DNA of 63,800 bases, counting the filler, from an uncultured Methanosarcinales archaeon (GTDB lineage Archaea; Nanobdellota; Nanobdellia; Woesearchaeales; CAZKBD01): the NCBI GenBank assembly GCA_964550945.1. It is 3 parts of 3 records of this genome, joined end to end, with 100 filler letters (N's around TTAATTAATTAA, not from the genome) between each part and the next. Parts side by side here need not be neighbours in the genome. Positions count along the whole stretch, not along the records: positions 1 to 27,454 come from CAZKBD010000016.1; 2 more parts are not named here. One strand, 5' to 3'. This document shows positions 15,001 to 27,000 of this stretch, piece after piece. Made by a program: the position numbers. Position 1 is the stretch's first letter, and each line of letters starts with the position of its first letter.

Positions 15001-18000
15001 CTTCTTGTGGCGGATTTAAATTTCCCAACCAATTTGATGACCTATTTCCTAATGATTATCTCTCTTGGGATTATACTAGCGCAAGATGCTGTAAGAATGT
15101 TTTCTATCCCTCATTTGAATGCTGTTCTGATAGTGATTGTGGTAGTGGAAGATGTGTAGACGGTTTATGTATAAATCGTATGTTTCAGGGAGTCTCTAGC
15201 GTAAAAGACCCTGCAATAGGAAATAAGAAAGTATTAATGATTATCAGTTCTAATGAAGCAAACACAGATCCCAACCCCTGCAGTAATAAAATACAAAATT
15301 ATCAAAATCTTACTAATGGTGTTGAGAACTATTATGATGCTCTAGCTAAAGAATATATTAATGAAAGCTCAAATTTTATAAATTTTAATTGGACTATAAT
15401 CGGCAATTTTAAGATACCTGATCTTGGGTTGGATGGAGAAGTAACCGGAATAGACATAGTTAATAAATCATCACAATACTGTAATATTAATCCTTATTTT
15501 TACGATGAGGTTGTAGTGTACAACCCTAACCAAAATAGTTGGTGTGATGGTGCACACGAAGCCTGCGCAGGCAATCCAATTTTAATACATTCTTATGAAA
15601 TGATTTCTGCAGGCACTCTAACCCATGAACTGGCGCATAATTTTGGATGTAGAGACCTTTATACTACGTTGGGTGGATTGTTTCAATGGTCGACTGATCT
15701 TATGACTTCAAGGGAAGGTCAAAATGGTTCGTTCAGTGGATTACAGGTTTGTAGGGGTGAAATGGGCTGGTTTGATTTAAATGGAAATGGAATAATTGAA
15801 GTTAAAGAATTCAAACACCCAACACAAATTAAGATTAATTATACTGGGATTCATGACGAAGAACGACCTAAGGGAAGATATATTATCTTTGAAAATTTGA
15901 GCGTTTTAGGATTGGATAATGATTCTAAGATATCCTTAGGTGTTAGACTGAGTATAATAATCCAGAGAGAGGGTAATGAGGAATACATCTGTGATGGTTC
16001 AGAAACTTGTGTACCCGTTCTTGCAACAGATATTATAATTCTTCGTGCTAAATATTCATATATAGATACTTCTATTGGAAGAATGATTGAACTTTCTGAT
16101 GAGATTAGACTTCTGGTATCGGATTTATCTATTTGAAATTATTTTTCTAATTATGAAATAAGGATGCCCCTTATAATCATCTGCTGCCCGTCATCTATTA
16201 TTGTTACGTTCTAGTGTAACATACCCCAATAGATGTTACGTTTTACTGTAACCTTTCTTGATTTTGTAGTGAGCATGATTAGGTTACTATTTGTCCCAAA
16301 CAAGACATCTTTGTCTAATCTATTTTCATTTAAGTCAATAAGTTTATAAATGTAAACATATAGCTTTTGCTGCTATGAAGCACTTAAGAAGCTTGTTGGA
16401 TCTGACAAAACAGGAATTGATTGATATTATAGATAAATCTATAGAAATCAAAAAGAATCCTAAGAAGTATTATGCTTCAATGGCTCATAAGACACTAGTC
16501 ATGTTGTTTGAGAAATCATCAACAAGAACAAGAGTTTCTTTTGAAGCTGGAATGAGCCAGCTTGGCGGACATGCAATTTATCTGGATTGGCAAACAACTC
16601 AACTTAAAAAAGCTAGCTTAAAGGATGAAATACAATGCATTGCTCGCTATGCTGATATTATTACAGCTCGCGTGTTTTCTCAAAAAACAATTGATGAGAT
16701 GGCTAAATATTCAACAAAGCCCGTTATAAACGCTTTATCGGATAAATATCATCCATGCCAGGTTATTGCAGATCTGATGACAATCAAGGAACATAAAGGA
16801 AAATTAAGTGGCTTAAAGTTAGCATATATTGGCGACGGAAATAATGTCTGCAATTCTCTTATTGTAGGCTGCACAATGGCTGGTATGAAGATAGCGGTTG
16901 CAACACCTAAAGGGTATGAGCCATTAAAGGAAGCTATTAAGTTTGCTGGTTCTAATTTGGAATTAATAAATGATCCTAAAAAAGCTGCTGCTGGTGCTGA
17001 TGTGGTTTATACAGACACCTGGGTTTCTATGGGGCAAGAGCAAGAAAAACAAAAGCGCTTGAAGGACTTTAAAGGCTATCAGGTAGATAAGAAACTATTA
17101 GGCAACGCCTTATTCATGCATTGCTTGCCTGCTATGAGGGGTGTAGAAGTGACAGATGAAGTTATGGATTCAAAGCAGAGTATTATATATGACCAGGCTG
17201 AAAACAGGATGCATGCTCAAAAAGCTGTTATGATTGAGTTGTGCAAATAAATTTCTTATTCAAATTGCTTGATAAACTGGTAAACAGGCCTAACAGCAAG
17301 CGCAATAAATGCAAGCACCCAATAGCCAATATTATCCCGGACAGAATCTGATATGTAAGCTCCGATTATTATTCCAAAAGCAATTGCCCCCCATTTCAGC
17401 AATGCAATATCCCACACAGTAAATCTCTTAATCCTTCTTTTATAAGATCTATAACTTTTTTGAATTGATCTGATAGCTTTCTTGATTGTTCCCATGAATA
17501 CCACCTCTTTAATTTGATTTTAGGTTTTATTATTAATAAATCTTTCTTAAGTGTAAGTCCAAAATTGGACATCATTGTTTTTATTTGTTTTCTATGAAGC
17601 AATAAATTTATAAATAGTTTATGTGAGAGTAGTCTGCTATGAAAAAATTGGCGAATGGGTTTGATAATGTAAAAGGAGTATATTGCTTAGGCAAGTATGC
17701 AGGCATTAAAAAAGGAAAAAAGGATTTTGCTGTTTTGTTCAGTGAGAAGATTTGCAATGCAGCTGCAGTATACACAAAAAACAAAGTAAAGGGAGCTGCA
17801 ATCTATGTGGATAAAAAGCATTTGGCAAATAATGAAGCCCAGGCAATTGCTGTAAATTCAGGGATAGCCAATGTGTGCACTGGTGAAAAAGGGATTGAAG
17901 ATGCTGAAGAGATCTGCAGCCTGGTTGCTGCTGAACTCAAAATAAAAAAAGAGGATGTTTTGGTCTCATCAACAGGCGTTATCGGGCATTACCTGCCGAT

Positions 18001-24000: not shown

Positions 24001-27000
24001 ACAAATTAACCAATCACCGCCATAAATATGAGATTGAGCAGTTCATAAAAACAAAATTAAGCTTTACCCCTCATGTCATTGATACATTCCAAGGGATGAT
24101 GGCTACTGCTCATATAATATTAAAAAAACCAATAAAAAAAGACCAATTAATAAAATTATATAATGATTATTATAAAAAAGAGCCATTTGTAAAGATCATT
24201 ACAGACAAGATTCCAGAGATAAAGGATGTTCAGAAAACAAATTACTGCCATATTGGCGGTTTTGAATGCGATGAGAATAATCAGTTAGTTATTGTTTCTG
24301 TCATTGACAACTTAATAAAAGGGGCTTCAGGACAGGCTGTTCAGAATATGAATCTGATGTTTGGGGTTGAGGAAGGGAATGGGTTAAATTAAGTATGTGA
24401 TCCATTAAACTAGCATGATCTGATAACTCATTTCTTCCGATCTTGAAATACCCTACTCCTAATTTTACCATATCTGCAATAATCTGATCTGATGCGATAG
24501 TTTCCTTTTTTGAGTCGCAACCCATGCCTTGCTCTTCTTTTCTTCTTAATGCTTCTTCGAGCAAAGATTTGTAAATTTCGGCAGTATCTCCTTTATTAAA
24601 AAGAGATACGGCCATATAGTGCCAGTATGAGTTACAGCCAGCGACGCAAGGCGTGTTGACTAGGGCAGATAATCTAGCCCTGTGGGCTGGCTCAATCTGC
24701 CCTACAATTTCTGGCCTTCTGCTGTCCATAGGTGATAGTATTACAAGTTTATAATTGCCATTTCTTAAGGACTCATTGTAAAAATCAATCCTTTGGGATT
24801 CGCTTAGCATTTCTTTTTGCGAGTATAATCGAATACATGAGGAAGCTATTCTCAATTGAGGGTAATTTGTTCTTACAAACAGTTCTATCTCTGAGTTAGC
24901 AACTATGACTCCATTTTCCGGTGAATTATCTGCAAGATATTCTAATGCTGCTAGCGTCAATTCATCTTCAAGGTCTTCTGGAGCGCAGACAAGGTTTGTT
25001 AATGTGAGGTAAAAAGGTATCCCCTTTTCATTTAAATTCACAACATCTGAAAAAGATGCCAATAGCAACATGGCATCCAGCCTGGGATTGTTCAGTTGAT
25101 TATTCCTTCCGCCATTCAATGGTGAGTTGCAAAGTGAACCGTATGCGATTAGCGAATGGCCTTCTCTTGCTCGGGAGATCATTCTTTCAACCCCTACACT
25201 TACAGGGACTTCTAGAGTTATTTTAGCCATTAGCCTTTAGGAATGTAAGGAGGTTTATAAAATTTTGTATTGGTTGTACTGAAATAGTGGTAACAATATG
25301 GTTTAGTTAGCGGAATAATGCTGAGGTGTTATTTCTATTAAAGAGAACTTTTTGTCTGGGTGTTGACTGTTCCATTCTGCAATATTGTCTTTTAAGGATA
25401 TTCTACCATTCGCTATAGGATATATATCTCCAAAAGATTGATTTCCTCCCCATAAATGGGCTCCGCCGTATACACACACCCAAAGCCCTGCATTTTGAGA
25501 GGCTATTTTTTGAAGAACAATATCTTCTCTATTTTCTACTACCACTTTGACCTTGTTGGGATCTTGTTCCCAACCTTCTTTTTCAACAATTAATCCAGCT
25601 AAATCATTAGACCTTATTTCTTCAACAGCCAATATTGACAGTTTGCCTTCAGCAACAAGTTTTTTTACTGCTGAATACCAGAACCTTTGATTTCTTTCTT
25701 GTAGTTGTTCTTCTCTTTCTTGGTTATATTTCTTATCTTTCTCCATTGCTTCTGGCAATTGAGCGGTTTTCCCTTCTATTTTGTCTTTTAAGTACAAGAT
25801 ATATTTATTTACAGCGTCGTTATCATTTGGAAACATATAATAAGCATCCAATGGAGTCAATTCTCCTTGGTTTATATCTAAGATTTCTCTTTCAAGTTGC
25901 CTTATCTCTTGATTTACTCTATCTTCCTCACTAACAGTTAGTTGGTGAACTAAATCGGAAAGTGAATCACTACTTCGTTCCACTTTTGCCACTATTTTGG
26001 GGATATCTTCCATACCAGGAACATACCCCTCATGGTATACCTCTTTCAATCCTTGCCTTCCAATTAAATAAGAAAGAATTTGATATATGTCAGATTGAAC
26101 AGCTGCTATGCTTTCCTTATCTTGTTCTGTAATTTTTTCTGTGATGTGCTCTTGGCGGATATGAACTAGGCAATATTTTGCATCTGGTGTGATGTATTTG
26201 TCCACTCCAGCTGCTCCAGGCATTTCGGAAGGGAAATTGACTAGCAACCTATTTGCTTCATTCGCAGATTCTAAATCATAATACCTAGGAGCAACAACAT
26301 TGGATTGCTGCCTGTAATCATATTCGTTCCTCCAAGAGCAATACCTAAATGCTGCCAGCCCAGCTGTAACTCCTAGAGTAACAGCTAAACCAATACGATT
26401 TATTCTTCTGATTTTTTGAGAAGAATATACCCTCTTATCTAAATTGTCTAATCTTCTCTTTAAATCTTTTAAAATGCCCATGTGCAAAATTAAGTGTAGG
26501 TGATATATAAATCTTTCTGTTTTAATCACTTTAAAGTGACAATTTCAATTCAGAACTTCGGCAAAAACTTAATTGTTTATCTATTATAAATCTCTTTTCT
26601 ATGGCCTATCTTTTCGATAAAAATCTTATTTTCTTTGGTGTTTATGCTCATTATCGCCCTGTAATCCCCTATCCTCAGTTTCCAGCTTGGCAGCTCTTTT
26701 AATCTTTCAATATAATGGAGCGGATTTTCTTTTATGCTGTAGATTTTTTTTAAAATTATCTCGATATTTTGTTTCTCTAATTTTAGAAGCTGTTTTTTAG
26801 CTTTTGGCAAAATAATAATAGAAAACATCTTAGAGATTCATGCCTAATTCTTTAGCCAACTCTTCTATTCTTTGGCCTTTTCCTTCTCTTATCTCTTTTT
26901 TAGCCTCGATTATGTCGTTTAATGCTTCATCAGTAAGCTGGCCTTCTTCCATCTCGTCTAATACTTTGTTGATTAGTTCGTCATAGCTCTCTTTAGAGAA

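What a model noticed while it worked through the whole genome (the two positions that open the first line are those of the whole stretch)
16291..24392. An arginine regulon without ArgR: a tandem GTCC-N7/8-GGAC operator precedes five leaderless arg promoters, and the same [...]
The promoters of argF, argJB and gdpD-argDC (C16:16291, 17555, 21350) and argG and argH (C78:6403, 382) carry the same tandem operator 82-84 nt before the start codon, just upstream of BRE-TATA. A single copy abuts the TATA box of the operon g00266-g00265 (C5:8820). Its unannotated helical-domain/2xACT protein g00265 is the candidate arginine-responsive regulator.
Evidence so far: Alignment of promoters: calls 52, 53. 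Leave-one-out: each of the 5 sites ranks 6th among 3.96 million positions. The C5:8820 site is 7th genome-wide. The box, or a wider-spaced variant, lies upstream of argG in 4 of 5 relatives and upstream of argC or an arg cluster in two more loci. It lies next to TATA ahead of the g00265 orthologue in 9 of the 10 such loci scored. In G161 a g00265 homologue lies beside argF and an argG-like gene, and in G402 (unpublished) next to the arg cluster. No ArgR row in the tables.
(Added by a program. Inside this text positions count along the whole contig: they may not be those of the stretch shown here. "Call 12" and the like, gene names such as g00115 and contig names such as C1 are that model's own, and its searches are not shown. 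The text may have been shortened before it was handed on; [...] marks where a part breaks off. The agent that wrote the report below was given it as the finding of a first reader that could run no searches.)

Follow-up and report, generated by a model that had tools for sequence, protein, structure and literature searches.

The report
Arginine operator of undescribed archaeal regulator
The arginine-making genes of this small uncultured archaeon share a DNA docking site that almost certainly belongs to an undescribed amino-acid-sensing regulator, whose sister proteins use related sites at lysine and serine genes, which points to a new family of archaeal gene switches.

Summary
The operator is real. 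Five arg promoters in this Woesearchaeota genome carry a 16-bp palindrome, TGTYY-N6-RRACA (N6, not N7/8). It is followed by a half-site and a weak second box that ends 5 nt before TATA. The first box starts 51 nt before TATA in all five. No ArgR passes cut-off here or in 60 argG-bearing genomes (this one included). The candidate g00265 (four-helix domain plus aspartokinase-type double ACT) is strongly supported. Its orthologue lies within 5 kb of argG in 34 of 49 genomes holding both, divergently in 32. A motif learned only from relatives' regulator promoters ranks argF, argH, the g00265 operon and gdpD in the top five of 3.9 million positions. A paralogue clade beside lysine genes carries a related but different palindrome. 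Most likely it activates arg promoters when arginine is scarce and represses its own operon. Repression by arginine is the main rival. Binding, ligand and sign are inferred, not measured. Ten library searches showed no paper on this family. The scan noted the same system on two other genomes.

The parts
16292..16337 (+). argF operator array: box A 16292-16307, half-site 16312-16316, degenerate box B about 16321-16337
   Evidence: rank 1 of 3.93 million with the relatives-only model
16343..16350 (+). TATA box of argF, 51 nt after box A start
16375..17250 (+). argF, ornithine carbamoyltransferase
   Evidence: Pfam and NCBIfam above cut-off
17556..17601 (+). argJB operator array (box A 17556-17571)
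   Evidence: rank 20 with the relatives-only model
17607..17614 (+). TATA box of argJ
17639..18784 (+). argJ, ornithine acetyltransferase
   Evidence: PF01960, E 5e-139
18864..19700 (+). argB, acetylglutamate kinase; co-transcription with argJ inferred (80-nt gap)
   Evidence: TIGR00761 above cut-off
21351..21396 (+). gdpD-argDC operator array (box A 21351-21366)
   Evidence: rank 5 with the relatives-only model
21402..21409 (+). TATA box of gdpD-argDC
21433..22134 (+). gdpD, glycerophosphodiester phosphodiesterase family, first gene of the unit
   Evidence: PF03009
22127..22267 (+). 46-aa basic small ORF overlapping the gdpD stop and the argD start; links gdpD to argD as one coupled unit (inferred)
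22264..23415 (+). argD, acetylornithine aminotransferase
   Evidence: TIGR00707 above cut-off
23412..24392 (+). argC, N-acetylglutamyl-phosphate reductase
   Evidence: TIGR01850 above cut-off
51615..52292 (-). Distant paralogue of the regulator (contig C17), divergent from a 97-aa ORF and a purN-like gene; not part of the arginine regulon. The arginine regulator (G000 C5:6991-7626, minus), its box (C5:8804-8819), argG (C78:5106-6320) and argH (C78:1-300) lie outside the window.

Best explanation
g00265 (P0001) is a dedicated arginine-pathway transcription factor of an undescribed family. It has an N-terminal four-helix domain with near-invariant Arg34/Arg56/Arg57 (DNA binding inferred) and an aspartokinase-type double ACT sensor (fold shown in a model, ligand inferred). 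A dimer binds the 16-bp palindrome TGTYY-N6-RRACA. At arg promoters the strong box A anchors the protein, and the weak box B, ending 5 nt before TATA next to an off-consensus BRE, places it to help load TFB/TBP. Genes are therefore switched on when arginine is scarce, and arginine bound to the ACT pair switches this off. At its own operon a single box abuts TATA and covers the BRE, giving autorepression. Shown: sites, spacing, conservation, linkage, paralogue-specific boxes. Inferred: binding (about 0.9), arginine or a close pathway metabolite as effector (about 0.8), activation rather than repression (about 0.6).
For: Linkage: 88 of 261 genomes have the arginine clade, 60 have argG, 49 have both; 34 of 49 lie within 5 kb, 32 of them divergent. 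Motif learned from 70 relatives' regulator promoters, own genome excluded, ranks argF 1, orphan 2, argH 3, regulator operon 4, gdpD 5, argJ 20 and argG 84 of 3.93 million. The box scores 12 bits or more upstream of 1 of 44 distant paralogues and 8 of 1446 ordinary genes. Held-out genomes: 4 of 4 have the box and a divergent argG- or argF-type gene. Lysine clade: its own palindrome TGTTA-N6-TAACA in 16 of 16 promoters and in 3 of 4 held-out loci; a model without the own site finds dapB first and aspartate kinase third in this genome. Fixed geometry: TATA at +50/51 in 37 of 43 hits before arg-type genes, shuffle mean 1.6, maximum 6. Own-gene gap is bimodal, 0 nt in 19 and 11 nt in 22 of 53. BRE position -4 is T in 64% of 56 target sites against 17-18% in ordinary promoters. 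Archaeal activators typically bind upstream of a weak BRE (PMC5512572, passages). Fold: aspartokinase regulatory domain Z 14.2, rmsd 2.3, 132 aligned. Clade-specific ACT residues Glu163 97%, Trp190 89%, Asp192 95% in 73 arginine-clade proteins.
Against: No binding, ligand, start-site or expression data. The N-terminal domain has no clear structural match (best Z 6.5 to ribosomal eS17; only weak homeodomain-like hits), so DNA binding rests on context. Box B overlaps the first BRE bases, which also fits repression. Eleven of 60 argG genomes lack a clade hit, and 39 of 88 clade genomes lack argG. One arginine-clade gene sits beside lysine genes (L100). In this genome the regulator is on another contig, and carAB has no box. 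A sixth strong site has no promoter. In the lysine clade my TATA scorer placed the divergent TATA at a 5-nt gap in only 6 of 15 promoters. Kin are not independent.
Confidence: 0.58

Rival explanations
1. Same protein and sites, opposite sign (TrpY-like). Box A is always bound and represses the regulator's own gene. Arginine makes binding spread cooperatively to box B, which blocks TFB at the BRE and represses arg genes.
For: Box B's right half overlaps the BRE start (G at -9 in 79%, C at -7 in 88% of 56 sites). A strong distal plus weak proximal site suits ligand-driven spreading. TrpY represses itself without Trp and both promoters with Trp in a divergent layout (PMC6737238, introduction).
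Against: The BRE departs from the local consensus at -4, as expected for activator-dependent promoters. No arg target site lies on or downstream of TATA, and spacing to TATA is fixed to 1 nt in 37 of 43. In the lysine clade a single strong box sits at the proximal position in the clearest cases.
Confidence: 0.3
2. The box is read by another factor, such as an Lrp/AsnC (LysM-like) protein, and g00265 is a co-regulated ACT protein or an enzyme subunit.
For: The genome has several Lrp-type genes, and Lrp genes lie near some arg clusters. The N-terminal domain has no proven DNA-binding fold.
Against: The box tracks the g00265 clade (1 of 44 for distant paralogues; 4 of 4 held-out). The lysine paralogue clade carries a sister palindrome with the same TGT-N10-ACA frame and different inner bases, matched by clade-specific N-terminal residues such as Ser30/Arg34 versus Gly/Glu. 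That co-variation is expected only if these proteins read the boxes.
Confidence: 0.07
3. The shared sequence is a copied promoter or general promoter element with no specific regulator, or an RNA element.
For: The five promoters resemble each other over about 60 nt, and an orphan copy exists.
Against: The array lies upstream of TATA, so it is not in the predicted mRNA. It is rare at ordinary promoters (8 of 1446 for a single box). It keeps its contact bases and loses its spacers across dozens of families.
Confidence: 0.03

Closest known systems
TrpY / TRP boxes (Methanothermobacter thermautotrophicus)
   Same: Archaeal amino-acid-responsive regulator, divergent from its biosynthetic operon, with boxes in overlapping promoters and autorepression (PMC6737238, introduction). 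An ACT sensor in TrpY is recalled, not from a call.
   Different: TrpY is a Trp-dependent repressor. P0001 has two aspartokinase-type ACT domains, a different pathway and a 16-bp palindrome. Homology could not be tested.
Tar (TK0271, Thermococcus kodakarensis)
   Same: Activator of amino-acid biosynthesis operons; palindrome upstream of BRE/TATA, TGGACA-N8-TGTCCA, with the same GGACA/TGTCC half-site (PMC6737238, results).
   Different: Tar is described as MarR-like, controls aromatic amino acids and is released by erythrose 4-phosphate, not amino acids. Half-site spacing differs (here N4 and N6).
ArgR/AhrC with ARG boxes
   Same: Same pathway and tandem operators (recalled). The ArgR oligomerisation domain matches one ACT weakly (Z 7.4, rmsd 2.2, 66 aligned).
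   Different: No PF01316 above cut-off in 60 argG genomes; different architecture; box unlike the recalled ARG consensus.
LysM and other Lrp/AsnC regulators (Sulfolobales)
   Same: Amino-acid-sensing regulator bound upstream of BRE-TATA at Lys/Arg genes (recalled).
   Different: P0001 has no AsnC HTH or AsnC ligand-domain match at E up to 1.
Aspartokinase regulatory subunit and CASTOR1
   Same: Same double-ACT fold (aspartokinase Z 14.2; CASTOR2 Z 8.2, CASTOR1 Z 7.9). CASTOR1 binds arginine through Asp304 and nearby backbone (PMC5187391, passages). The arginine clade keeps Asp192 in the last ACT hairpin where the lysine and serine clades have Glu.
   Different: No kinase domain, so database names such as 'aspartate kinase' are misannotations. 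That Asp192 equals Asp304 is my inference; the residues were not superposed.

Membership tests
ArgR/AhrC regulon | ArgR protein (PF01316) in the genome | tested here: not met
   0 of 1 own; 0 of 60 argG-bearing genomes over cut-off, one hit at E 0.001 with stops; controls rang in 9 of 14
ArgR/AhrC regulon | ARG-box consensus | tested here: inconclusive
   The derived box differs from the ARG box as recalled; no ARG-box matrix was run
Lrp/AsnC (LysM) | AsnC-type winged HTH plus AsnC ligand domain | tested here: not met
   No PF13404, PF13412 or PF01037 match for P0001 at E up to 1, while neighbouring Lrp proteins matched them
TrpY family | Sequence homology to TrpY/TK1227 | not testable with these tools
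   No TrpY sequence was available from a tool; NCBIfam gave only weak aspartate-kinase hits
TrpY family | Divergent regulator with boxes in shared promoter region | tested here: met
   32 of 34 linked pairs divergent; one array serves both promoters in many loci
Tar (TK0271) | Site TGGACA-N8-TGTCCA | tested here: not met
   Spacers here are 6 nt (TGTYY to RRACA) and 4 nt (RRACA to TGTYW)
Tar (TK0271) | MarR-like HTH | tested here: inconclusive
   No clear fold match for residues 1-68
DUF7523 (PF24367) | Score over the curated cut-off | tested here: not met
   23 bits against 27 for P0001, 24.8 for the lysine paralogue; many homologues carry a precomputed PF24367 hit, so the families are related
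Aspartokinase-type tandem ACT | Two ACT domains in the aspartokinase regulatory arrangement | tested here: met
   Model pLDDT 96.4; Foldseek E 8e-9; Z 14.2
Aspartate kinase | Kinase domain (PF00696) | tested here: not met
   211 aa, no PF00696 match
Archaeal activators (TFB-RF1, Tar, EarA type) | Raises transcription in vitro or in vivo | not testable with these tools
   Only geometry and BRE make-up were tested

The most novel reading that the evidence does not exclude
These proteins form a modular family of archaeal activators with a new four-helix DNA-binding domain that reads TGT-N10-ACA and an aspartokinase/CASTOR-type sensor. Paralogues have been retuned in both box and ligand to arginine, lysine, serine and other pathways, and they recruit TFB from a fixed position 5 nt upstream of TATA. 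The arginine member would be a prokaryotic counterpart of the CASTOR arginine pocket, and the many look-alikes named 'aspartate kinase' or DUF7523 in Bacteroidota and haloarchaea would be unrecognised regulators.
Probability: 0.35. Interest if true: 0.82.

Novelty: new variant of a known kind. Interest (0 to 1): 0.62.

Why it matters
Few archaeal amino-acid regulators are characterised, and the ten library searches showed none for Woesearchaeota. This gives a named protein, a precise site, a regulon and sister systems, all testable with one recombinant 211-aa protein and short oligonucleotides. It suggests that these supposedly host-dependent archaea actively tune arginine, lysine and serine supply, including arginyl-tRNA synthetase. 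It would also assign a function to a family with over 1,600 clusters at 50% identity, now named 'aspartate kinase', 'ACT domain protein' or DUF7523.

Tried and rejected
Complex prediction of the regulator dimer with the TFB core returned no answer, score 0.00; it is not used either way. A strict two-equal-box model at periods 18-23 bp did not recover the arg promoters, which is why I reject a simple tandem. Widths 15 and 17 were rejected. My early idea of a third GTC repeat at a 20-bp period was replaced by box B at +29/30. The orphan site region had no informative match in 20 relatives and no arg-gene remnant. The N-terminal domain gave no usable Atlas hit and no clear fold match. A palindromic model for the serine clade was weak (best 46 against 21 shuffled); only repeated TGACA half-sites are visible. 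The search for related loci rejected the distant alignment, and the single-protein scan gave 4 loci, so the family's context outside this phylum was not examined. Ten cluster look-ups gave one taxon name. The sigma-70 and terminator scan was at chance level. The careful tree did not finish; the quick tree is quoted. Literature searches without a relevant paper.
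Full report
Setting. The window holds contigs C16, C17 and C67 of a 1.97-Mb genome, 92.5% complete. Named homologues place it in the Woesearchaeota. argF, argJ, argB, gdpD, argD and argC are confirmed by Pfam and NCBIfam, argG by Pfam, and argH by 60% identity to a relative's argH.

The observation. All five promoters carry TGTYY-N6-RRACA, then 4 nt, then TGTYT. 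Leave-one-out ranks were 6, 6, 5, 6, 6 of 3.93 million positions. The only stranger above them is a sixth site at C78:7466-7481. TTTATAAA starts 51 nt after the first box in 5 of 5, and ATG follows 81-83 nt after it. None of the five has a Shine-Dalgarno-like word, so leaderless starts are likely but unmeasured. A 46-codon ORF (22127-22267) overlaps the gdpD stop and the argD start, which supports gdpD-argDC as one unit. The sixth site lies between convergent 3' ends and lacks TATA at +51; I read it as a relic or decoy.

The true shape of the operator. EM on 200 nt upstream of 70 regulator orthologues from relatives, own genome excluded, gave a 16-bp palindrome (log-likelihood 370; width 14: 274; 15: 188; 17: 227; shuffled: 27). 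Aligning target promoters shows box A, a half-site at +20, and a degenerate box B at +29/30 whose right half (RGWCR) ends 5 nt before TATA. Among 43 hits in front of arg-type genes in 38 loci, 37 had TATA at +50 or +51; 200 shuffles gave a mean of 1.6 and a maximum of 6. Among all 87 non-regulator hits, including reverse readings of the same arrays, 50 did.

No ArgR. PF01316 found nothing in this genome and nothing over cut-off in 60 argG-bearing genomes, this one included; controls rang in 9 of 14.

The regulator. P0001 (C5:6991-7626) is 211 aa with sub-cut-off DUF7523 and ACT hits. Its model (pLDDT 96.4) has four N-terminal helices and two ACT domains. The ACT part matches aspartokinase regulatory domains (Z 14.2, rmsd 2.3, 132 aligned) and, more weakly, CASTOR2 and CASTOR1 (Z 8.2, 7.9). 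The N-terminal domain alone has no clear match. In 261 genomes of the order, 133 have a family hit, 88 a close hit (E 1e-27 or better), 60 an argG hit and 49 both. In 34 of these 49 the two lie within 5 kb, and 32 of the 34 are divergent. Five of those 34 involve an argG-like paralogue of 33-37% identity. Eleven argG genomes lack a close hit, and kin are not independent. I fetched 40 close-hit loci from genomes without argG, chosen without regard to neighbours. By my reading of the maps, 7 have arginyl-tRNA synthetase nearby, 7 have argB/C/D-like or carAB genes, 3 an acetyltransferase and 6 an Asp/Glu-racemase operon. One (L100) has lysine genes, and the remaining 16 show nothing clear.

Linking box and protein. 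The relatives-only 36-nt model ranks, in this genome, argF 1, the orphan 2, argH 3, the regulator's operon 4, gdpD 5, argJ 20 and argG 84 of 3.93 million. The single box reaches 12 bits upstream of 55 of 71 close orthologues (70 were the training set, so this count is circular), 1 of 44 distant paralogues and 8 of 1446 ordinary genes. Four genomes fetched later all have the box (14-17 bits) and a divergent argG- or argF-type gene.

Sister systems. This genome has four family members. One is divergent from dapB-dapA with lysA nearby, one from DUF1015 and a serC-like gene, and one (window 51615-52292) from a small ORF and a purN-like gene. A quick tree of 117 proteins separates an arginine clade (73 rows, SH-aLRT 99), a lysine-linked clade (15 rows, 98; 9 beside dap/lys genes) and a serine-linked clade (8 rows, 98; 6 beside ser genes). 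About half of the arginine-clade loci were picked because they lie near argG, so that tree's labels are enriched. The lysine clade has its own palindrome, TGTTA-N6-TAACA, in 16 of 16 promoters (141 against 23 shuffled) and in 3 of 4 held-out loci. A model without the own site ranks the dapB site first, a site between leuB-like and ilvC second, aspartate kinase third and a gene that I read as PEP carboxykinase fourth. The two boxes share TGT-N10-ACA and cross-score poorly. Clade-specific residues occur in both domains: Ser30/Arg34 against Gly/Glu in the helical domain, and Ser-Cys-Trp-x-Asp against Ser-Thr-x-x-Glu (lysine) and Ile-Cys-x-x-Glu-His (serine) in the second ACT. CASTOR1 holds the arginine guanidinium with Asp304 (PMC5187391, passages); equating it with Asp192 is inference.

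Mechanism. At its own gene the box lies 0 nt (19 of 53) or 11 nt (22 of 53) before TATA. In this genome it lies 0 nt before TATA and covers the BRE, which fits autorepression. At arg genes the array lies upstream of TATA at a fixed distance, and the BRE has T at -4 in 64% of 56 sites against 18% of 260 and 17% of 162 ordinary promoters. Archaeal activators typically bind upstream of a weak BRE and recruit TFB or TBP, while repressors bind on the promoter or downstream (PMC5512572, passages). I therefore favour activation under arginine shortage (0.58 for the whole model). Arginine-dependent repression through box B stays open (0.30), because box B overlaps the BRE start.

Comparison and novelty. 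It works like TrpY in layout and like Tar in position and half-site (PMC6737238: outline and parts 1-4 of 7 read, covering abstract, introduction, results, discussion and part of methods; supplements not seen, and its list of 87 regulators could show whether a relative was screened). It is not ArgR, Lrp or an aspartate kinase by the tests above; TrpY homology could not be tested. Searches found no paper on this family, and the library lacks most subscription journals. LysM and ARG-box details are recalled. The scan noted this system on two other genomes (e1-1169514; e1-5230813). The first gave me the TrpY lead. My neighbourhood and lysine-box results came before I saw the second. These notes are not independent support.

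Unpublished genomes. G129, G204 and G206 are among the 49 co-occurring genomes, and G129 and G204 are among the 34 linked. One G206 locus is in the lysine motif and the tree, and G118 is only in the 133 tally. No conclusion depends on them.

Verdict. A real regulon with a strongly supported, undescribed regulator family; a new variant of a known kind; interest 0.62.

Noticed in passing
window 19842-20688; G000 C78:2344-3226 and C78:6536-7388: Three small gene pairs with a nucleotidyltransferase (Polbeta/NTP_transf_2) interrupt the arg clusters. They look like HEPN-MNT toxin-antitoxin modules (label recalled; the first gene had no Pfam hit).
   Followed up: partly
window 17256-17495 (minus): A 79-aa probable membrane protein lies divergent from argJ, about 60 nt from the argJ box A, and may share the operator.
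   Followed up: no
G000 C78:1-300 and C42:5-862, 901-2577: argH is split over two contig ends whose overlap differs in several bases (strain mixture?), and arginyl-tRNA synthetase follows its 3' end. It may join the regulon, but it has its own TATA-like word.
   Followed up: partly
G000 C5: about 8573-8671 (minus); L005, L010, L017: A 32-codon ORF lies in the 250-nt leader of the phosphotransferase-regulator operon; similar short ORFs precede the regulator in three relatives.
   Followed up: partly
L067, L071, L074, L174: In several genomes the regulator faces arginyl-tRNA synthetase, in L067, L071 and L174 with a stand-alone B3/4 protein. This recalls canavanyl-tRNA deacylase CtdA (PMC10018355, search listing and abstract start only).
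   Followed up: partly
L088, L092, L094, L096, L097, L103: In argG-negative genomes the same operator controls an Asp/Glu-racemase gene, usually with an unknown 250-aa protein (no Pfam hit), at the same spacing as biosynthetic promoters.
   Followed up: partly
window 51615-53364: A fourth paralogue faces a 97-aa ORF and a purN-like gene; its upstream region repeats a short word twice; ligand unknown.
   Followed up: partly
L069, L089, L001, L175-L177, L179: A phosphotransferase gene precedes the regulator in one subclade, often with ribA next to it, and gdpD is the divergent boxed gene in two genomes without argG. This suggests gdpD was captured into the regulon by position.
   Followed up: partly
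L115, L119, L107, L139: Other paralogues lie beside leuA-leuCD-type genes, trpE, metK and glutamate dehydrogenase, hinting at further amino-acid specificities.
   Followed up: no
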